Shown one piece after another: positions 17,186 through 64,000 of a DNA stretch of 64,000 nt. Location of the stretch: IMG/VR virus record IMGVR_UViG_3300037423_000296, positions 11,541 through 75,540 of that record. One strand, written 5' to 3'. The stretch's first letter is position 1. Each line of letters begins with the position of its first letter. The notes beneath the pieces were generated by a model. The model was given only the letters and a program-made list of their open reading frames with translations, ran no database searches and was not told the origin of the DNA. The translations under genes were made by a program, and so were the position numbers. The DNA is from a virus (lineage: Duplodnaviria; Heunggongvirae; Uroviricota; Caudoviricetes).

Positions 17186-17629
17186 TCAATAGGCGGCAAC
17201 CCACCGGATTAGAAAGCGAGGGTCGAAAGAGCGAGAGCACTTGCCACAAGCCCTATTGCCACTAGGCTTACGGTGCCGCTTGATGATGTGACCATTCGGA
17301 CAAAGCCCGTGCCACTTGTAAGACACCTCTACCTTGTCAGCGCTGCAACGCTTGCCGTCACAGCCAATTGAGAGAGCCTTTCGACGCCATACCGCATCGT
17401 GGCCGTGGGAAGCTCCTACAAGCGCGTGAGCGATTTCGTGGAGCATGGTGTTTCGTACTGCCTCTTCGGTACGCTGCACCGTGAGAACCCGGCTCAGAGA
17501 GATAAGCCTGTCAGAGTGGCGGCAGCGTCCAAACCGGCTTTTGGCGTTGTCCCACTCGAATCTCCAGCCGGTCAAGCCGTGTGCGGCCATCAGCAGTTTG
17601 GCCTGTCGCTCAGCTTGGAAAAGGTCCAT
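17186..17629 (-). CDS. SprT-like zinc metalloprotease
   Basis: HEIAHAL (HExxH) followed by Cys-rich zinc ribbon (CPNGH..CGKC). Confidence 0.75.
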   Translation of the reverse strand: MDLFQAERQAKLLMAAHGLTGWRFEWDNAKSRFGRCRHSDRLISLSRVLTVQRTEEAVRNTMLHEIAHALVGASHGHDAVWRRKALSIGCDGKRCSADKVEVSYKWHGLCPNGHIIKRHRKPSGNRACGKCSRSFDPRFLIRWVAAY

Positions 17630-17696
17630 CGTCTTGCCCTTTCGGTCGATTTGCTTGGTGTAAGCTTACCAGCCTAGAGAGTGTGGGTCAAGCCCT

Positions 17697-17873
17697 AATT
17701 TGTGCGGGTACTGGGATTCGAACCCAGATATCAGTACGCTCGACATTGCTAGCATTTAGTCGAGACTAGACTGAGACTGTGCACCATCTCTGCCTAGAGA
17801 ACCATACTGCATTCGACGGAATTGCTCCCTTAGCCTTGCTCTTCACAAGCGGCTTTACCATTTGCCTATACCC
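17697..17873 (-). ncRNA. tRNA-like element (7-bp acceptor GCGGGUA/UACCCGC, D-arm, T-arm CUGGG-UUCGAAU-CCCAG) with about 100-nt insertion; identity unresolved
   Basis: manual folding; perfect acceptor pairing 177 nt apart. Confidence 0.35.
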
Positions 17874-19306
17874 GCATGAAGGGCTAGATGACCCCCGTTA
17901 AGAACCCATCTAGCCCTAGTGCTCTTCCGCACGACGGTTTGAGCAGTTAACCAATCAGGCACCTGACAAATGCTATTGGTTCTCTGTGCTTCCGGTTGTC
18001 AGCCTCACAGAGTGGGCTTATGCCTCCGTTATCTCAACCACCATTAGCACGGAAGCTACACTAATGGTGTGTAAAAGTGAAGAGAGCCAGCCGACGCATT
18101 GCATCACAGCAAAGCATTCAGTCTAAATGCCTTTCATCGTTGACTAGACGATTAAGCTCTCCCCAACTTGCGCTCCCAGCGGGAGTTGAACCCGCGCTAA
18201 TACATTGACAATGTATCGTGCTGCCGTAACACTTTGAGAGCAATCGCCGGGTTTTGTTAAGTGGCTCCCTGCTAATACCCGGCTGATTAGCAGAAATCTT
18301 GAGCCGATGAGTGAATGCGCCTACCCATTCCACAGGGCTTTAGTACGCATTCGCTAGTGGAATTCCCTAACTCGCCTTGAGCGTCGGGCTAGCCTCACCA
18401 CGTGTTTTTGTCGTTGCCATGACTAGTATTGGCTTTCCCGTCTCGCCAGACGTTCCACGCAATGAGTAACCTTTGACGTTATCGCCGGTTGCGGTCCTTG
18501 AATGCTACCCGGTAAACCGGACATCTTCACCTAACCTCACTGCCGCTCTATGCCTAAGGATGCTATTTATACTCGCATAGACGAGTGTTGAGGCGCATTA
18601 GCTGTCGTATGCTATGCGAATTGATAGGTCAGTCCGGGGCTCGTTCTACAGGTTCCAGCCTTCGCCACTTCAACCCGCTTCCACCCTAACCATTCCATTC
18701 TGGCTCTCCGCACAAGGGACTAGAACCCAAGCTCTCCTCAACGTGTCACCCCATCCGGTTAATTCCGGTCCTGCCAACCCCAGTTAAAGGCTGACTATGC
18801 TTTCCTGCTTAACGGCAGGCCTATACACTAATGGGAAGCTTATGGGGTGGACGCTAAGACCAGTGTTCTTCATTCCGGGCGTACCGGACTTCCACTTACG
18901 TCTCTTATCTAACACAAGACCCCGCAGAATTTCGAATCGGTGCCAGTTCACCCTGTGATTCTCCATTCTGACCCCGGCTTTTTCTAGCAAGCGTGACCAA
19001 GCCACCGGGGATTTGCTTTTGCTGGTGTGGGTGGCGTTTATACACTCTCCCCTAATCCGGGCGTACCCAGAAGCCACATGCCCATCTTGTCTAGTGTTAG
19101 ACCAGCAATTCGCTATTCAGTTGTCAAGGTGTTGCCTAACTTCCTTGGTTTGTATATCTTAATCTTGCCTTGATTCTCGGAGCTTGTCAAGTAGCTGTGG
19201 GAAGTTTTTCATCATCTCGGCCCACTGCTCAGACTCAGCCTTGAGACACTTGGCACACCGCTCCTCGTGCCAACCAGTAGTCTCACTACCCGGCTTGCAG
19301 TCGCAG

Positions 19307-19540
19307 TCAGTCATCCCTATACCAGTCTTTCAGGAACAGAGTCCCTACCTTGTGATACCGCCTGCCATATCGCCACTGTACTTCGCAACCGGCAGGACAT
19401 TGAAGCTTTGTTCGTGGACCAGCACCCTTGTTGGAAAGGGTTCTATGCCAAGTGGCTACAGCATGGCACTCTGGACACCTGTGAGGCTTGTCCTCGTTGC
19501 GCTTAACCCACCGCATACTGAGCCAGCTTAGCCTCTGCAA
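19307..19540 (-). CDS. hypothetical Cys-rich (zinc-finger-like) protein
   Basis: ORF track; CPEC..CPAGC. Confidence 0.4.
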   Translation of the reverse strand: MQRLSWLSMRWVKRNEDKPHRCPECHAVATWHRTLSNKGAGPRTKLQCPAGCEVQWRYGRRYHKVGTLFLKDWYRDD

Positions 19541-20993: not shown

Positions 20994-21022
20994 AGCTTAG
21001 CGTACCGGGAGGAGCTTGTCAA
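20994..21022 (-). promoter_or_regulatory. promoter TTGACA-N17-TAAGCT
   Basis: consensus match. Confidence 0.5.
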
Positions 21023-24656: not shown

Positions 24657-25400
24657 TTACCGGCCCTTCTGCTTGAGCGTACTATCCAAGGAAACCTTAC
24701 CGGAGAATGCAGCCCTCATCAAGCCGGGGAACTGATTCAAGGTAATGATTGACGCAACGGTGTTGTGTCGGAACATCTTGGAAAGCTCGTCGGCAACCCG
24801 CTCATCTGCGACAGACTCAACCCCGACATGGACAGCAGGCTCACGGAGAGCGTCAGCCAAATTTATGTCCAGAGCGAATCCCTTGGTGACCGTGAATCGA
24901 ATTGCCCTGAGAGCCCTCAGCGGGTCTTCTGACAGCCTTTCTAGTGGGTCACCTACAGCCCTAACAATCCGGCGCTTGATGTCCCTAAAGCCGTCGTGAG
25001 GGTCAATGAAGTTACCAGTGCTATCCTTGGCAATGGCATTCATGGTGAAATCCCGCCGCTTTAGGTCGTCGCCAAGCTTACCCGGCTCAACCTTGTCAGG
25101 CCTGCGTCCGTCCGTGTAATCCGACTCCTTGCGAGCCAGCACAAAGTCGGCAGCCATGCCAGGGTAAGTCGGGTGATTCTTCGGGAATTGTCCACGAGCC
25201 GTCAAGAATTCGGGGGTCGTCACGAAAATGGTGAATCCCTGCTTCTTCAGCATGTCCACCATCGTTTGAAACGGATTGAATTCCAGCCCGCCAATTGGGT
25301 TCCAATCGTACTGAGCGAGAACGCAAGTGAAATCAATGTCCTTCGATGGAATACCCAGGATTTCATCCCGAACACAACCGCCTACTTCAAAGAGTTGCAT
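24657..25400 (-). CDS. cca: tRNA nucleotidyltransferase (CCA-adding enzyme / polyA polymerase head domain)
   Basis: GGCVRDEILG..DIDF and RRDFTMNAIA motifs. Confidence 0.85.
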   Translation of the reverse strand: MQLFEVGGCVRDEILGIPSKDIDFTCVLAQYDWNPIGGLEFNPFQTMVDMLKKQGFTIFVTTPEFLTARGQFPKNHPTYPGMAADFVLARKESDYTDGRRPDKVEPGKLGDDLKRRDFTMNAIAKDSTGNFIDPHDGFRDIKRRIVRAVGDPLERLSEDPLRALRAIRFTVTKGFALDINLADALREPAVHVGVESVADERVADELSKMFRHNTVASIITLNQFPGLMRAAFSGKVSLDSTLKQKGR

Positions 25401-33943: not shown

Positions 33944-34176
33944 TCTACCTCCACCCGAGTGATTGCTCCACCGTCGTCAATGTAGAAGAAGCCCCCTTCC
34001 TTAGACCCGCCGACTGCCCGGTTACCATGCAAGTCGGGGTAGGCAAGGATGTCTTGAACAGTACAGCCGTTCTCTTTGTCCTGCTCTCGACGGGCATCCT
34101 CGAAGTTCCAAAAGGCTCGTGGTCCTGAGTTCCGACCTTCATAAATCCAAACTATAGCCAAATTGTTATGCCTCAA
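33940..34176 (-). CDS. hypothetical protein
   Basis: ORF track. Confidence 0.45.
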   Translation of the reverse strand: MRHNNLAIVWIYEGRNSGPRAFWNFEDARREQDKENGCTVQDILAYPDLHGNRAVGGSKEGGFFYIDDGGAITRVEVE

Positions 34177-34571
34177 ATCTTGTCGTTATAGAAATCATCA
34201 AGTAGTGAGTCAATGTCCATTACCTCTTCGCCCTCAGGCACCAGAACGCGGGTCTGGTCAAGGAAGAGGCTCACCTCATTGAGCGGGTACAGAACGTTCT
34301 GGTAGCCGCCGTCGAATCGTAGGTGCATGCCTACCATTAGCTGTGTGACCGAAAAACTGATTGAACCTTCACCGGCATATCCCATTGCTCGTTCACGGTT
34401 CACTACCGGCTGTACAGCTTCGCTCAGTAGCTCCCGGCCAAAGATAATGTCCGCGCCGGTCACGTTCTGTAGCCTAATCTCGAATGGTCGAGTCTCGTCG
34501 TAAATGAAATTGGTAACCATTTTCTGGTCACCGCCGACGCCTACATGACCTGTAATTGGGCGTGCAAACAT
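34173..34571 (-). CDS. SsgB/SsgA-like protein (SALP family) homolog
   Basis: recalled alignment to S. coelicolor SsgB: YDETRPFEI.. vs YDTADPYAV.., IIFGRELLSEAV vs WVFARDLLAEGL, SLFLDQTRVLVPEGEE vs SFLKRTDAAVPPGTE; ATG start chosen (track used GTG upstream). Confidence 0.6.
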   Translation of the reverse strand: MFARPITGHVGVGGDQKMVTNFIYDETRPFEIRLQNVTGADIIFGRELLSEAVQPVVNRERAMGYAGEGSISFSVTQLMVGMHLRFDGGYQNVLYPLNEVSLFLDQTRVLVPEGEEVMDIDSLLDDFYNDKI

Positions 34572-34798
34572 GCCCCAGTTCCCCACCTCTCGTGTCCCCT
34601 GCTCCCCCACCTTGCCCTCTGCTGGACACGATGCTGGGAGGAATCCTACCTGTTAAACGGTTTGAGCCGCAAAGCGTTACGTAACGCTTAGGTCTCGGCC
34701 TGTCCACAGCCTGTGGACATCCTATGTCACCTGTAGTGACACTACAAGTCCACGGAGTGACAAGACCGGGTTCCTTTACGAAACCCGGTCTACGACAA

Positions 34799-54697: not shown

Positions 54698-54712
54698 CTC
54701 TTCCTCTCTAAT

Positions 54713-54790
54713 TGTGGAGTCGCGGGGAATTGAACCCCGGTCCTTTGCATTCAATCGTACATCCGAATTACAGCCATCCCTATTCTTTAG
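54713..54790 (-). ncRNA. tRNA-like fragment (perfect T-arm CGGGG-UUCAAUU-CCCCG; no acceptor partner found)
   Basis: manual reading. Confidence 0.3.
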
Positions 54791-55108
54791 ACCTTTACGA
54801 TTGAAGGTGGTCCCAGGATAAGTCCGTCTACCTCTGGCCTTTTAAACTGATGCCGAGCAGTAGGGGGGGTGAACAGTTTGTAGGCGAAGCCACTGTTCGA
54901 TTTCCACCACTGACCTTTCTGTTCCTAGGCAGTCAGCGCCCGATGCTCAATCCTCAGACTGAAGCAAGGTCGTACTCAGCGCAAAGCGCCTCGTACTCTG
55001 CATCAATGTTGTCAGTTGCAGTTATTGTTTGTCAAGTGTTTAACGACTCTCTCAACGAAGTCGGGCTGCGTTCATACTCTCTAGTTCAAAGTCGATACCT
55101 TTCGACCC

Positions 55109-55423
55109 CTAAGGCAAATATACTTTTGCCAAGTTATTGTCTACAAGTAGTTTATTGAGACTTTCAGTACCGGCGAAAACCTCTGCCAGCCAGCGACCGT
55201 ACTTCTCTTTCTTGTAGGTATTGATTGTAACTGTTGGATTCTTTGCAAAGAAGGACTTTACGAAGGCTGTTGCCTCTGCCCATCCTACCTGACCACGCTC
55301 TGGCGTGTCAATTCCATACAATCTGAAAACCGTATCAACTCTAATATCAAATCCCAGGTCTACTGTTAGTTCTACAGTATCACCATCTACCGCTCTAACA
55401 AAGTCTGCCTTGTATTGGTACAT
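55109..55423 (-). CDS. thermonuclease (staphylococcal nuclease-like, SNase domain)
   Basis: VRAVDGDTVEL..RLYGIDTPE..KYGRWLA motifs. Confidence 0.8.
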   Translation of the reverse strand: MYQYKADFVRAVDGDTVELTVDLGFDIRVDTVFRLYGIDTPERGQVGWAEATAFVKSFFAKNPTVTINTYKKEKYGRWLAEVFAGTESLNKLLVDNNLAKVYLP

Positions 55424-60780: not shown

Positions 60781-60975
60781 CTACGAATTCTTTCCTCGTA
60801 GCCACCAGTCGGCCAAATCTACAGAGCAGTTTCCGCAGATTTCTCCTCTATCATCCACTGCCAGAACCGGCCCATTCTCATTGAACTGAGACTCAAGCCT
60901 TAGACTGACAATGCCAAGCGCCTTAAACTGAGAGACTACCTTGTTACAGTTCGGCCTTGCGCAAATTGTTGCCAT
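60781..60975 (-). CDS. zinc-ribbon protein (start at MATICARPNC)
   Basis: CARPNC..CGNC. Confidence 0.4.
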   Translation of the reverse strand: MATICARPNCNKVVSQFKALGIVSLRLESQFNENGPVLAVDDRGEICGNCSVDLADWWLRGKNS

Positions 60976-61516
60976 CAAGCACCTCCTTAAGATAGTTGTA
61001 TCTAACAATGTTAAACTTAGCATCTTCAAGAGCGTTGTGCAAGCCTTCCGGCTGCTTAGGCATGTCACAGTACTTAGCTAGTTTGTGTAGCTGCTTGATA
61101 TCGTAGGTCACCATCGGTACCTCGGGTGGAAGGTCAACCATCTTGCCAAAGAGTTGGGCTAGGCATACATGGTCATAGGCACTGTACCATGCCCATAGTT
61201 CTGCTGGCTGTCCTTGGCCGACAAATTCCAAGACCCCGCGCTTAATCTCCTCGCGGCTCATGGCTGCCGGGTCTGTGATGTCGAAGTCTCGATAGACAGG
61301 AAATCCTTCGGCATCGACAACAGCGTACGACTCATGGTCAATAGAAGACATAACATTCTCCATGAGCCACCAATGAGTTGCTACCCTGGAAGTGTCGAAT
61401 TCATTAGACACAGCGTAGAAAGTCTCATCTGTCTCGTAGTTCACGATTCCGATACTGATAAGGTCGATAATCTTTCCATCTTCATGGAATTCACAGTCAT
61501 AGAAAAACTTACTCAT
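60944..61516 (-). CDS. DEDDh-family 3'-5' exonuclease (DnaQ/RNase T-like)
   Basis: Exo I YDCEFHEDG, Exo II AWYSAYD, Exo III HNALEDAKFN motifs. Confidence 0.8.
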   Translation of the reverse strand: MSKFFYDCEFHEDGKIIDLISIGIVNYETDETFYAVSNEFDTSRVATHWWLMENVMSSIDHESYAVVDAEGFPVYRDFDITDPAAMSREEIKRGVLEFVGQGQPAELWAWYSAYDHVCLAQLFGKMVDLPPEVPMVTYDIKQLHKLAKYCDMPKQPEGLHNALEDAKFNIVRYNYLKEVLDGNNLRKAEL

Positions 61517-63438: not shown

Positions 63439-64000
63439 TTACAGACGACCGGCTGAGAAGTCTGCGAAAACCTTTGGCGCGTTGCTGTCAAAGCCAACGA
63501 AATCCATCTGGTTCGCGTCCTTAGGGTCGGCCACAGTGTACTCGGTAGCAGCTACACCGAAGCTTGCCAGCTTCGCATTAATTCCCATCTTCTGGCGGTA
63601 GTCGGCCAAGGCCTGGGTAGGCTTACGACCGGTGTTAGCCTCGTTGTCGGTAATCATTGCGAACGTGTCAACCTCAATACGGTTCTTGATAGCGTAGTCG
63701 ATTGCAGCGGAAATGTTCGTTGCTCCGAAGGAACGCTGAACCCTTTGCATTGCACCTTCCAAGTTAGTCTTGGCCGTAATTCCAAGGTCAACGATGCTGG
63801 TTCCGAACCCTACAATCTCGCTGTACTTTTCAGTACGAGCAAGGTTCATTCCCATAGCCGCTGCAACCTGCGCGGCAGAAAGGTCTAGACCGTTAGCAGC
63901 GAATCCGGCCATGGAGCCAGAAACGTCAACTGCGAGCATAGTCCTCTTGCCGGAAGGCTCGACGTGCTTGAAAGCCTCGTAGAAGCCCTCGTTGAGAGCG
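63439..64000 (-). CDS. von Willebrand factor A (VWA) domain protein, 5' end beyond window
   Basis: MIDAS motif DVSGSM; reading frame stays open to the window edge. Confidence 0.7.
   Translation of the reverse strand, partial: ALNEGFYEAFKHVEPSGKRTMLAVDVSGSMAGFAANGLDLSAAQVAAAMGMNLARTEKYSEIVGFGTSIVDLGITAKTNLEGAMQRVQRSFGATNISAAIDYAIKNRIEVDTFAMITDNEANTGRKPTQALADYRQKMGINAKLASFGVAATEYTVADPKDANQMDFVGFDSNAPKVFADFSAGRL

What the first reader, a model, noticed from the sequence alone, without database searches (positions are those of the whole stretch)
17690..19180. 1.5-kb ORF-poor interval with tRNA-like substructure: candidate large structured RNA(s)
Only two weak ORFs exist here. At 17697-17873 on the minus strand, a perfect 7-bp acceptor-like pairing (GCGGGUA/UACCCGC) flanks a D-arm-like stem and a canonical T-arm (CUGGG-UUCGAAU-CCCAG), separated by an insertion of about 100 nt. 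There is no encoded CCA, and the phage encodes a CCA-adding enzyme. A second T-arm-like hairpin, gcggg-uucaacu-cccgc, lies at about 18183. This could be an intron-containing or permuted tRNA, a reduced tmRNA-like RNA, or another structured ncRNA. I could not fit a tag-peptide reading frame.
Basis: partly seen in the sequence, partly recalled or inferred. Interest (0 to 1): 0.7.

Follow-up and report, generated by a model that had tools for sequence, protein, structure and literature searches.

The report
Phage noncoding-RNA operon with tRNA mimic
The ORF-poor 1.5 kb is a conserved, promoter-bounded noncoding RNA unit of an uncultured actinophage that holds a pistol self-cleaving ribozyme, a normal tRNA-Asp, several unclassified structured RNA segments and a conserved 173-nt tRNA-shaped RNA that cannot decode and has no described family.

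Summary
Minus-strand 19190-17700 has no conserved ORF, and it recurs in near-identical and in diverged metagenome relatives (SprT 84% and 72% identical).

What is there:
- **Pistol ribozyme, 18586-18454.** Rfam scores it 37.9 bits against a cutoff of 34.5. I read P3 as a long-range helix with a 69-nt insert and predict cleavage at G18458|U18457.
- **tRNA-Asp(GUC), 18241-18171.**
- **tRNA-shaped RNA (TL), 17875-17703.** The acceptor, D arm, T arm and an anticodon-arm-like hairpin are invariant. The inserted three-way junction covaries: 6 pairs change on both sides, and 97% of cells pair against about 35% in slid controls. It is neither a decaying pseudogene nor a canonical tRNA.
- **Flanking segments.** They show compensatory changes and a 47-nt invariant core, with no Rfam family.

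TL carries a conserved GNCGAAUG, the proposed Ro60-binding motif of YrlA Y RNAs. The window also encodes a Ro60 orthologue at 63439-64000. However, TL's topology, its distance from that gene and the absence of a YrlA model hit all fail the family test.

The ribozyme and the tRNA are known kinds. TL is a new variant of the tRNA-mimic kind, and its function is inferred, not shown.

The parts
19162..19190 (-). Promoter-like site at the head of the unit: TTGACA (19190-19185), a 17-nt spacer, then CAAGAT (19167-19162)
   Evidence: The motif TTGAC[AC]-N17-[TC][AT]AGNT occurs 4 times on the minus strand (21022, 19190, 17691, 15187) and 0 times on the plus strand; shuffles give 0.16. L143 has it at the same place (TTGACA-17-TTAGAT). 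Function is inferred.
18587..19155 (-). 5' structured RNA segment 'a'. It contains the leader motif UUGACAACUGAAUAG (19127-19113), hairpin a3 (19010-18972), hairpin a4 (18970-18925), core a5 (18923-18844, with an invariant 47 nt at 18896-18850), a T-loop-like hairpin (18731-18713), module a7 (18709-18618) and a GCAU hairpin (18617-18595).
   Evidence: Helices a3 and a4 have 10-11 pairs changed on both sides between lineages. The a5 core is identical in the relative whose SprT is only 72% identical. No Rfam family matches at E<=10, even when only 566 nt are searched. No GenBank phage matches.
18454..18586 (-). Pistol self-cleaving ribozyme. P1 is ACUCG/CGAGU (18586-18571). The pseudoknot pairs UCUAUG with CAUAGA (18552-18547). 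The linker is AUAAAUAG (18570-18563). P2 is UCC (18560-18558) with GGA (18456-18454). GCG lies at 18546-18544. P3 is GCAGUGAG (18543-18536) with CUCAUUGC (18466-18459), with a 69-nt insert. The predicted scissile bond is G18458|U18457.
   Evidence: Rfam RF02679 scores 37.9 bits against a gathering score of 34.5. The pseudoknot, P1 and P3 covary in L106 and L143. The same architecture is seen in 20 distinct IMG/VR pistols. Cleavage itself was not tested.
18242..18457 (-). Structured segment 'b' between the predicted ribozyme cut and tRNA-Asp. It has a hairpin with a conserved UGGCGA loop (18452-18439), a multi-helix domain, and a possible CCGGG/CCCGG pseudoknot.
   Evidence: RNAalifold on the window and L106 finds 58 pairs, 5 of them changed on both sides. 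The first ~60 nt are 83% identical in L143. A covariance model of it finds no homologue in 41 other loci.
18171..18241 (-). tRNA-Asp (anticodon GUC), no encoded CCA
   Evidence: ARAGORN and Rfam tRNA call it at 57.6 bits. The anticodon stem covaries in L143, which scores 59.1 bits.
17876..18170 (-). Variable spacer 'c' with strong hairpins, including the 36-nt hairpin 17916-17881 and the GGUUGAGAUAACGG hairpin module 18039-18026
   Evidence: The fold z-score is -4.45. Content differs between lineages: an extra ~95-nt tRNA-like element is inserted at ~18020 in L106, L031 and L113, and is also present upstream of TL in L142. L113 carries a replaced block, and most of 'c' is different in L143.
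17703..17875 (-). TL, a conserved tRNA-shaped ncRNA. In order it has: acceptor; D arm (17866-17851); hairpin H1, CUUGUGAAGAGCAAG (17849-17835); hairpin H2 (17829-17818); GUCGAAUG (17817-17810); helix S1, CAGUAUG/CGUACUG (17809-17803 with 17738-17732), which carries hairpins S2 (17797-17766) and S3 (17764-17739); AUAU; T arm (17727-17711); acceptor 3' strand; and discriminator A17703.
   Evidence: Four lineages were aligned. With the structure I supplied, 97.1% of cells pair against 31-38% when partners are slid. Six pairs change on both sides, and 0 of 500 shuffles reach the covariation score. The acceptor, D arm, H1 and T arm are invariant.
17663..17691 (-). Second promoter-like site (TTGACC-17-TAAGCT), downstream of TL and upstream of the SprT-like protease gene (17629-17186). 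It marks the end of the noncoding unit.
   Evidence: It is one of the four motif occurrences. The equivalent TTGACA-17-TAAGCT lies downstream of TL in L142 and L143.
63439..64000 (-). C-terminal part of a Ro60 (Rsr) orthologue; the gene runs off the window end. It is the candidate protein partner of TL.
   Evidence: PF25045 vWA_Ro60, E=7.6e-45. 'Ro-like RNA binding protein' is annotated in 115 Streptomyces and 210 Mycobacterium phage records.

Best explanation
The interval is a dedicated noncoding transcription unit on the minus strand, about 19155 to 17700. It lies between two copies of a recurring phage promoter motif.

**Processing (inferred).** Its roughly 1.45-kb primary transcript is cut in two ways:
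- by its own pistol ribozyme at G18458|U18457, which would leave a 2',3'-cyclic phosphate upstream and a 5'-OH downstream;
- by the cell's tRNA-processing enzymes at the two tRNA-shaped elements.

**Predicted products.**
- a ~0.7-kb structured 5' RNA that keeps the ribozyme;
- a ~216-nt structured RNA;
- tRNA-Asp(GUC);
- a variable spacer;
- TL, a 173-nt tRNA-shaped RNA.

- a 7-bp acceptor and A73;
- U8, A14, G18, G19 and A21;
- a T loop of UUCGAAU;
- a possible A15:U48 pair.

It has no usable anticodon loop. Instead, an invariant small hairpin (H1), a covarying hairpin (H2), an invariant single-stranded GNCGAAUG, and a 7-bp helix ending in a three-way junction occupy the anticodon and variable region.

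TL is therefore a non-decoding tRNA mimic. I infer that it is matured like a tRNA, with CCA added by the phage enzyme at 24657-25400, and that it serves as a protein-binding scaffold. The most likely partner is the phage Ro60 orthologue.

**Shown versus inferred.** Shown here: the anatomy, its conservation and covariation, and ribozyme family membership by sequence and structure. Inferred: transcription, cleavage, maturation and the partner.
For: **The locus is noncoding and conserved.**
- Gene-free gaps occur in the homologous contigs, and indels break reading frames.
- The same order (a, pistol, b, tRNA-Asp, c, TL, SprT) is present in L143, where SprT is 72% identical. TL lies upstream of SprT in L142, where SprT is 84% identical.

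**Promoters.** The motif occurs 4 times on the minus strand against 0.16 expected. Copies sit at both borders and are conserved in L142 and L143.

**Pistol.**
- It scores above the Rfam gathering score.
- All catalytic-core positions named in PMC6154101 are present: purine 32, G33, G40, C41, G42 and the G-U junction.
- The pseudoknot reads UCUAUG/CAUAGA in the window, UCUGAG/CUCAGA in L106 and ACUAGG/CCUAGU in L143.
- P3 reads GCAGUGAG/CUCAUUGC, then GCAGUAG/CUACUGC, then GAAGUUGUUGUG/CACAACAACUUC in the same three.
- On 23 sequences the pseudoknot pairs in 99.3% of cells, with 4 covarying pairs.

**tRNA-Asp.**

**TL.**
- The closest tRNA in the window to the TL model is the class II tRNA-Leu(UAG).
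- Neither ARAGORN's default mode nor the Rfam tRNA model accepts TL.

**Ro60 link.**
- GUCGAAUG, GGCGAAUG and GACGAAUG in three lineages fit the GNCGAAN0-1G motif that PMC4201824 proposes as the Rsr/Ro60 site of YrlA RNAs.
- A Ro60 orthologue lies in the window.
- A below-threshold YrlA match (35.4 bits against a gathering score of 69) lies about 1.8 kb upstream of the Ro gene in the related Streptomyces phage Sham.
Against: - There is no expression data of any kind.
- No terminator-like site lies in the unit, so read-through from upstream genes and into SprT is possible.
- Pistol P2 is only 3 bp in the window and is poor in the relatives (2/3 pairs in L106, 1/3 in L143). The L143 copy has a diverged linker and is not called by Rfam at E<=5. 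Cleavage may therefore be weak or lost in some lineages.
- My script chose P3 and P2 for pairing, so their pairing percentages are not independent evidence.
- The Ro60 link is weak. The motif has only six fixed bases. In my scan for copies lying near a T-loop-like sequence it turned up 15 times on the minus strand alone.
- TL lies about 45.6 kb from the Ro60 gene.
- The Rfam YrlA model gives no hit in 17300-19500 at E<=10.
- The motif sits at the proximal end of the anticodon-stem-like helix, not the distal end as in YrlA.
- Only four lineages, two of them nearly identical, support the TL covariation.
Confidence: 0.6

Rival explanations
1. TL is a true Y RNA: a non-permuted YrlA. It would bind the phage Ro60 through GNCGAAUG and helix S1, with the tRNA-like module protecting or targeting it, as in actinobacterial YrlA after RNase P cleavage.
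For: - The GNCGAAN0-1G motif is conserved, with only the N position varying.
- D, T and acceptor mimicry, including a possible A15:U48 pair, matches what PMC4201824 describes for YrlA.
- Ro60 is encoded in the window.
- TL's GUCGAAUGCAGUAUGGUUCUCU resembles the 5' end of the Sham YrlA-like RNA, GUCGAUUGUAAUUGGUUAUCU (16 of 22 by eye).
- M. smegmatis YrlA has a 7-bp acceptor, is cut by RNase P and receives CCA.
Against: - The Rfam YrlA model gives no hit to TL.
- YrlA is a circularly permuted tRNA whose ends form the Ro-binding stem, whereas TL's ends are at the acceptor.
- Published YrlAs lie within 4 kb of rsr; TL is ~45.6 kb away.
- The motif is short and frequent by chance and sits at the other end of the helix.
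- I could not retrieve the region upstream of rsr, where a canonical YrlA may lie.
Confidence: 0.28
2. The whole ~1.5 kb is one large ornate phage RNA of the GOLLD or ROOL type, with tRNAs embedded in a linker. It would act as a single folded particle.
For: - GOLLD and ROOL are phage or prophage RNAs found near tRNA islands, and GOLLD sometimes holds tRNAs in its linker.
- Many helices here are supported by compensatory changes, and there is an invariant core.
- A T-loop-like hairpin and reused hairpin modules are present.
Against: - No GOLLD or ROOL hit appears at E<=10, even with lax filters.
- The unit contains a self-cleaving ribozyme and two RNase P-type substrates that would break it up.
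- Segments are shuffled, inserted or replaced between lineages. The pistol 5' part lies upstream of module a7 in L106 and downstream of it in the window, and segments c and 3' b differ in L143. That fits independent modules better than one fixed fold.
Confidence: 0.1
3. TL is an intron-containing tRNA gene. The ~85-110-nt insert would be removed, by itself or by phage RNA-repair enzymes, to give a working tRNA.
For: - ARAGORN's intron mode returns a tRNA with an 86-nt intron.
- The arms are perfect.
- Related Streptomyces phages carry interrupted tRNA genes: in TomSawyer, tRNA halves flank an HNH endonuclease ORF.
Against: - No group I, group II or other intron family hits, and the insert is too small for a group I core.
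- ARAGORN's solution places the intron at 31/32 and needs an AAA anticodon and an odd long variable arm.
- The natural anticodon-arm-like hairpin has G at position 33, or a 5-nt loop, and it is invariant in all lineages.
- The junction sequences CGAAUGCAGU and ACUGAUAU are invariant, and the insert's helices covary. That pattern fits a functional domain.
Confidence: 0.07
4. The interval is a graveyard of decaying tRNA genes and mobile-element scars with no function of its own.
For: - Content is mosaic, with presence/absence variation between haplotypes.
- tRNA-like fragments are present, including an extra tRNA-like element and T-loop-like hairpins.
- HNH-split tRNAs occur in relatives.
Against: - TL, the a5 core, the pistol and tRNA-Asp are retained in lineages whose SprT protein is only 72-84% identical.
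- Compensatory changes keep helices intact.
- A 47-nt block is identical across these lineages.
Confidence: 0.05

Closest known systems
Pistol self-cleaving ribozyme (Rfam RF02679; Weinberg et al. 2015; structures 5K7C and 5KTJ)
   Same: P1 with a 6-nt loop forms a 6-bp pseudoknot. The A-rich linker AUAAAUAG, UUAGG (purine 32, G33) and GCG (G40-C41-G42) are all present. P3 is followed by G-U and a short P2. The phage context also matches, since pistols are reported near phage genes and I found them in 26 IMG/VR contigs.
   Different: P3 carries a 69-nt insert here, 106 nt in L106, where it encloses a whole conserved RNA module. It sits inside a noncoding RNA unit next to tRNAs rather than in a 5' UTR. 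P2 is weak in the relatives.
YrlA / bacterial and phage Y RNAs (Rfam RF02553; Chen et al. 2014, PMC4201824)
   Same: Both mimic tRNA D, T and acceptor arms, replace the anticodon stem with another helix, and carry a GNCGAAN0-1G motif. Both occur in actinobacterial phages that also carry Ro60, many tRNAs, a tmRNA and a CCA-adding enzyme.
   Different: YrlA is circularly permuted, with its ends at the Ro-binding stem and its acceptor closed by a loop. It is about 110 nt and lies within 4 kb of rsr. TL is unpermuted and 173 nt, has two extra hairpins and a three-way junction, lies ~45.6 kb from rsr, and is not hit by the YrlA model.
tmRNA tRNA-like domain
   Same: Both have an acceptor and T arm with a non-decoding body that replaces the anticodon arm.
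   Different: TL has a full D arm, no pseudoknot ring and no tag reading frame. The phage already has a standard tmRNA at 54712-55109 (96 bits).
Class II tRNA (tRNA-Leu type)
   Same: The 5' half resembles the window's tRNA-Leu(UAG), which is the best tRNA match of the TL model. H2 looks like a long variable-arm hairpin.
   Different: The H1 loop is UGAAGAG, with G33. About 85 nt of three-way junction lie before the T arm. TL scores below the Rfam tRNA threshold.
GOLLD and ROOL large phage RNAs; theta (HDV-like) ribozymes next to phage tRNAs (PMC10879173)
   Same: All are phage noncoding RNA in or beside tRNA islands. Theta ribozymes likewise place a small self-cleaving ribozyme adjacent to phage tRNA genes.
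   Different: No sequence or structure match to GOLLD or ROOL was found. The ribozyme here is a pistol, and it lies 216 nt upstream of the tRNA rather than at its 3' trailer.

Membership tests
Pistol ribozyme (RF02679) | Score at or above the Rfam gathering score | tested here: met
   37.9 bits against 34.5 in the window and L030, and 39.6 bits in L106 and L108. The L143 copy is not called at E<=5.
Pistol ribozyme (RF02679) | P1 hairpin whose loop forms a 6-bp pseudoknot with the P2-P3 junction | tested here: met
   UCUAUG/CAUAGA pairs 6/6. It covaries in L106 and L143. Across 23 pistols, 99.3% of cells pair and 4 pairs covary.
Pistol ribozyme (RF02679) | Conserved core: A-rich linker, purine 32, G33, G40, C41, G42 | tested here: met
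   AUAAAUAG, then UUAGG, then CAUAGA-GCG, read against the residues listed in PMC6154101.
Pistol ribozyme (RF02679) | P3 followed by a two-nucleotide G-U junction and P2 | tested here: met
   P3 has 8 bp around a 69-nt insert, then GU, then GGA pairing with UCC. cmscan's own 3' end at 18533 is a local-alignment shortcut. P2 is only 2/3 pairs in L106 and 1/3 in L143.
Pistol ribozyme (RF02679) | Site-specific self-cleavage | not testable with these tools
   This needs in vitro transcription, or sequencing specific for 2',3'-cyclic-phosphate and 5'-OH ends.
Canonical tRNA (RF00005), for 18241-18171 | Cloverleaf with a 7-nt anticodon loop, and a score above the gathering score | tested here: met
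   57.6 bits, anticodon GUC. The anticodon stem covaries in L143.
Canonical tRNA (RF00005), for TL 17875-17703 | Acceptor 7 bp, D arm with GG, T arm with a UUCRANY loop | tested here: met
   Read directly from the sequence, and invariant in four lineages.
Canonical tRNA (RF00005), for TL 17875-17703 | 5-bp anticodon stem with a 7-nt loop carrying U33 and purine 37; model score above threshold | tested here: not met
   H1 is either 4 bp with loop UGAAGAG (G33) or 5 bp with a 5-nt loop. The Rfam tRNA model gives no hit at E<=10, and ARAGORN's default mode is silent.
YrlA Y RNA (RF02553) | GNCGAAN0-1G motif | tested here: met
   GUCGAAUG at 17817-17810, GGCGAAUG in L142 and GACGAAUG in L143. The motif is short and common by chance.
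YrlA Y RNA (RF02553) | [quoted passage not shown] | tested here: met
YrlA Y RNA (RF02553) | Permuted order, with 5' and 3' ends forming the Ro-binding stem and the acceptor closed by a loop | tested here: not met
   The below-threshold YrlA matches in Sham and LRRHood, read, are permuted. TL has the normal tRNA order.
YrlA Y RNA (RF02553) | Encoded within ~4 kb of the Ro60 gene on the same strand | tested here: not met
   TL is on the same strand but about 45.6 kb from the Ro60 gene (TL at 17.8 kb, Ro60 at 63.4 kb).
YrlA Y RNA (RF02553) | Match to the family covariance model | tested here: not met
   No YrlA hit in 17300-19500 at E<=10. The phage YrlA-like matches themselves score only 35-36 bits against a gathering score of 69.
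YrlA Y RNA (RF02553) | Bound by Ro60/Rsr | not testable with these tools
   This needs co-immunoprecipitation or a gel shift with the phage Ro60.
tmRNA | Resume codon and tag-peptide frame, with pseudoknots | tested here: not met
   ARAGORN's tmRNA mode gives only a forced, unidentified tag at a lowered threshold. Rfam tmRNA hits only 54712-55109.
Group I intron in a tRNA | Group I core (P3-P9) within the insert | tested here: not met
   No Intron_gpI hit at E<=10, and the insert of about 85-118 nt is too short.
GOLLD / ROOL | Match to the family covariance model | tested here: not met
   No hit at E<=10 on 2.2 kb or on 566 nt. Only the genomic context (phage, tRNA island) is shared.
Bacterial RNase P RNA | P4 helix with a bulged U and CR-I/CR-V, and a model match | tested here: not met
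   GGAAGUCCGG (a5) and CCGGACU (a7) are complementary and look P4-like. However, they lack the bulged U, and no RNase P family hits.

The most novel reading that the evidence does not exclude
TL would found a new class of phage tRNA-mimic RNA. It would be an unpermuted counterpart of YrlA that is matured like a tRNA (RNase P cut, CCA added by the phage enzyme). It would recruit the phage Ro60 and the neighbouring 3'-5' exoribonuclease to structured RNA targets. The upstream ~0.9 kb would be a second new structured RNA whose release depends on a pistol ribozyme, which would give pistol its first defined biological job: excising a noncoding RNA from a tRNA-operon transcript.
Probability: 0.25. 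Interest if true: 0.8.

Novelty: new variant of a known kind. Interest (0 to 1): 0.6.

Why it matters
**A natural context for pistol.** Pistol ribozymes have well-studied chemistry but no assigned biological role. Here one sits at a fixed, conserved place in a noncoding RNA unit. Its fold is kept by compensatory changes even though the surrounding modules are rearranged. That gives a concrete, testable processing role.

**A new form of tRNA mimicry.** The tRNA-shaped RNA shows that phages with large tRNA sets also keep non-decoding tRNA mimics under selection. If TL proves to be a Ro60 partner, Y RNAs would extend to an unpermuted architecture that current models cannot find.

**Unclassified structured RNA.** The invariant 47-nt core and the covarying helices upstream mark further structured RNA with no family.

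Tried and rejected
**Rfam searches.**
- Gathering thresholds on the whole window.
- E<=10 on 2.2 kb and on 566 nt.
- Only tRNA and pistol were found. There was no RNase P, GOLLD, ROOL, group I or YrlA hit.

**ARAGORN.** Intron and tmRNA modes gave forced solutions only.

**Searches for the locus in public collections.**
- BLAST of the interval, of TL and of segment 'a' against 50,697 GenBank phages matched only SprT, tRNA-Asp and generic T arms.
- Exact-pattern scans of IMG/VR for the window's exact pistol sequence, the TL 5' half, TL H1 and the a5 core gave 0 hits.
- A genome scan for H1 gave 5 hits inside unrelated sequence with no tRNA-like context, about the number expected by chance.
- SprT-anchored loci from IMG/VR and from the metagenome collection (<=70% identity) lack the locus.
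- Relatives came instead from exact-protein look-ups and one protein search.

**Covariance models.** Models of segment b and of TL found no further homologues in 41 and 85 loci.

**RNase P-like reading of a5 and a7.** Considered because of the GGAAGUCCGG / CCGGACU complementarity. Rejected because there is no bulged U and no model hit.

**Permuted YrlA in the window.** My own scan found none.

**Region upstream of the Ro60 gene.** I tried to reach it through a protein search, but no close relative of the window's Ro60 is on record (best 65% identity).

**The 97-aa ORF at 18784-19077.** Rejected as coding because of frame-breaking indels in L030.
Full report
**Setting.**
- All genes and RNAs in the window lie on the minus strand.
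- ARAGORN and Rfam find 32-33 tRNAs and a tmRNA at 54712-55109.
- The gene just downstream of the finding, 17629-17186, is a SprT-like protease. It is 62-70% identical to those of Streptomyces cluster BE phages (Stanwilliamsviridae), but the interval itself has no DNA match in 50,697 GenBank phages.
- The window also encodes a CCA-adding enzyme (24657-25400), an SsgA-like protein, an Rv2179c-like 3'-5' exoribonuclease (60944-61516) and the C-terminal vWA domain of a Ro60 orthologue (63439-64000, E=7.6e-45).
- This is an uncultured actinophage of the kind that carries many tRNAs, a tmRNA and Ro.

**Checking the observation.**
- The tRNA-like element exists as described, at 17875-17703 rather than 17873-17697.
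- It has a 7/7 acceptor, a D arm with GG, the T arm CUGGG-UUCGAAU-CCCAG, discriminator A and no CCA.
- Standard tRNA finders reject it. ARAGORN with introns forces a tRNA-Phe(aaa) with an 86-nt intron at position 31/32 and a long variable arm, which is not credible.
- The 'second T-arm' is the T arm of a normal tRNA-Asp(GUC), 18241-18171, 57.6 bits.
- The interval is noncoding. ORFs are short, gene callers left it empty in four independent contigs, and a 98%-identical haplotype has +1, +2 and -6 indels inside the longest ORF.

**Finding relatives.**
- Anchoring on SprT in IMG/VR and in the metagenome collection gave only relatives at 70% identity or less, and these lack the locus.
- Exact-protein look-ups found contigs from one JGI project that are 96-100% identical. 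They include a second haplotype (L106, L108) that is mosaic between 19113 and 18421.
- A protein search then gave two more distant relatives. L142 has SprT 84% identical and holds TL. L143 has SprT 72% identical and holds the whole locus in the same order.
- These four lineages carry the comparative evidence.

**The ribozyme.**
- Rfam calls a pistol ribozyme at 18586-18533 (37.9 bits against a gathering score of 34.5).
- The model matched P1, the linker, UUAGG, the pseudoknot strand and GCG. It then skipped P3 and took a nearby poor P2.
- I read 26 IMG/VR phage contigs that carry a pistol 5' core; they yield 20 distinct usable pistols. The natural pattern is a P2 of 3-4 bp, a P3 with 4-69 nt between its strands, then GU (rarely AU or GA) and P2'.
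- Applied to the window, this gives P3 as GCAGUGAG (18543-18536) with CUCAUUGC (18466-18459), then G18458-U18457, then GGA pairing with UCC.
- The relatives keep this fold with different sequences:

| Helix | Window | L106 | L143 |
|---|---|---|---|
| Pseudoknot | UCUAUG/CAUAGA | UCUGAG/CUCAGA | ACUAGG/CCUAGU |
| P3 | GCAGUGAG/CUCAUUGC | GCAGUAG/CUACUGC | GAAGUUGUUGUG/CACAACAACUUC |
| P1, fifth pair | G-C | G-C | C-G |

- On a 23-sequence alignment of minimised cores, the pseudoknot pairs in 99.3% of cells with 4 covarying pairs. P3 and P2 in that alignment were chosen by my script for pairing, so they are not independent evidence.
- In L106, P3 encloses the conserved module a7. In the window, a7 lies upstream of P1. 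The ribozyme fold has therefore survived a rearrangement of its surroundings.
- Weak points: P2 pairs only 2/3 in L106 and 1/3 in L143. The L143 linker has diverged, and Rfam does not call that copy.

**The tRNA-shaped RNA (TL).**
- Aligning the window, L106, L142 and L143 shows several invariant parts: the acceptor, the D arm, the hairpin H1 (GCUUGUGAAGAGCAAGG, stem and loop), CGAAUGCAGU, ACUGAUAU and the T arm.
- Other helices change while keeping their pairing:
  - H2 is GGGA/UUCC, then GGUUGG/CCAACC, then GGGG/CCCC.
  - S1 has A-U, G-C and U-A at one pair, and G-C, U-A and C-G at another.
  - S3 has three covarying pairs.
- With the structure I supplied, 97.1% of cells pair against 31-38% for slid partners. 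Six pairs change on both sides, and no shuffle of 500 reaches the covariation score.
- TL is thus under selection as a structured RNA.
- Its tRNA core keeps U8, A14, G18, G19, A21, the T loop and a possible A15:U48 pair.
- S1's 3' strand is followed by a 4-nt AUAU and the T stem. S1 therefore sits where the anticodon stem would be and ends in a three-way junction.
- H1, H2 and GNCGAAUG are inserted after G26. An alternative reading treats H1 as the anticodon arm and the rest as a giant variable region; secondary structure alone cannot decide.
- Either way there is no canonical anticodon loop: position 33 is G, or the loop has 5 nt.
- The best tRNA match of a TL covariance model in the window is the class II tRNA-Leu(UAG), which suggests descent from that type.
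- No TL homologue was found in 85 other loci, in GenBank phages, or by exact-pattern scans of IMG/VR and of 185,579 species' genomes.

**The Ro60 lead.**
- Chen et al. (PMC4201824) define YrlA Y RNAs of bacteria and mycobacteriophages by two features: a tRNA-like domain and a GNCGAAN0-1G motif thought to contact Ro60/Rsr.
- TL has GUCGAAUG, GGCGAAUG and GACGAAUG in three lineages, and the phage encodes Ro60.
- The last Rfam search gave below-threshold YrlA matches beside the Ro genes of Streptomyces phage Sham (35.4 bits) and Mycobacterium phage LRRHood (36.1 bits).
- Read by eye, these are circularly permuted tRNAs whose ends form the motif-bearing stem.
- TL differs in four ways: it is unpermuted, its motif is at the proximal end of the helix, it lies ~45.6 kb from the Ro60 gene, and the YrlA model does not hit it.
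- The motif is also frequent by chance.
- I therefore treat 'works like a Y RNA' as a hypothesis at about 0.25-0.3 and do not file TL in the family.

**The other segments.**
- Upstream of the ribozyme, hairpins a3 and a4 keep pairing through 10-11 double-sided changes. The a5 core contains 47 nt identical in all lineages.
- Segment b, between the predicted cut and tRNA-Asp, has five compensatory pairs between two haplotypes and a conserved 5' part in L143.
- Segment c is a variable spacer with strong hairpins (z = -4.45).
- None of these matches an Rfam family.
- A P4-like complementarity between a5 and a7 made me test RNase P. It fails: there is no bulged U and no hit.

**Borders.**
- A motif TTGAC[AC]-N17-[TC][AT]AGNT occurs four times on the minus strand and never on the plus strand, against 0.16 expected.
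- One copy lies at 19190-19162 at the head of the unit and one at 17691-17663 between TL and SprT. Both are conserved in the distant relatives.
- The generic sigma-70 and terminator scan found nothing.

**Conclusion.**
- The interval is a conserved noncoding RNA operon.
- Two parts belong to known families: the pistol, with a long P3 insert, and tRNA-Asp.
- TL is a new variant of the tRNA-mimic kind.
- The a and b segments are unclassified structured RNA.
- Transcription, cleavage, maturation and partners are all inferred and need experiments.

Noticed in passing
window 63439-64000 (-), 60944-61516 (-): A Ro60 (Rsr) orthologue runs off the window end; its vWA_Ro60 domain scores E=7.6e-45. An Rv2179c-like 3'-5' exoribonuclease lies 2 kb downstream. 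A strong terminator-like hairpin at 63435-63405 follows the Ro60 stop. This is a possible phage counterpart of the Ro/Y RNA/exonuclease machine.
   Followed up: partly
window 59798-59727 (-): A 72-nt tRNA-shaped sequence lies just upstream of tRNA-Lys(CUU). It has acceptor GGGUCGC/GCGACCC, anticodon loop CUCUUAC (CUU) and T loop UUCAAUU. It has G8 and a weak D stem, and neither ARAGORN nor Rfam (at gathering score) calls it.
   Followed up: partly
L106 4018-4113, L031, L113, L142 1-85; insertion point about window 18020: An extra ~95-nt tRNA-like element is present in some haplotypes and absent from the window. It has acceptor GCCCCUA/UGGGGGC, T arm CCCGG-UUCGAGU-CCGGG and an odd middle part. 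Neither ARAGORN nor Rfam calls it.
   Followed up: partly
L141 (Streptomyces phage TomSawyer MN369750) 1990-2535: A tRNA 5' half (acceptor plus D arm) and a matching T arm plus acceptor 3' half flank an annotated HNH endonuclease ORF (2033-2497). This looks like a tRNA gene split by a homing-endonuclease gene. It is unannotated, and there is no room for a group I core outside the ORF.
   Followed up: partly
window 21022, 19190, 17691, 15187 (-): A recurring promoter-like motif, TTGAC[AC]-N17-[TC][AT]AGNT, occurs on the minus strand only (4 copies against 0.16 expected). The copies at 21022 and 19190 share TTGACAAGCTCC.
   Followed up: partly
window 18039-18026 (-) and L143 1197-1211: The hairpin-loop module AAUGGU(G)GUUGAGAUAACGG sits in spacer c in the window but inside segment a in L143. 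Pistol likewise changes place relative to module a7 between haplotypes. RNA modules seem to be shuffled within the locus.
   Followed up: partly
L149 (Streptomyces phage Sham ON645339) 1467-1671: The tRNA annotated 'tRNA-Asp(gat)' has anticodon loop CUGAUAA, so it reads as tRNA-Ile(GAU). A below-threshold YrlA match (35.4 bits) follows it after 12 nt and is not annotated. A manA RNA match (38.8 bits, below threshold) lies at 995-1151.
   Followed up: no
L115, L123, L124, L136 (IMG/VR contigs): Several phage contigs carry two pistol ribozymes 0.4-1.2 kb apart. Many pistols start within a few bases of the stop codon of the upstream gene. L117 has a tmRNA-like 3' end about 400 nt downstream of its pistol.
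   Followed up: no
window 34173-34610 (-): An SsgA-like protein (the Streptomyces sporulation and cell-division family; E=1.7e-05, 25.1 bits, just at the 25-bit cutoff). This is consistent with a sporulating actinomycete host.
   Followed up: no
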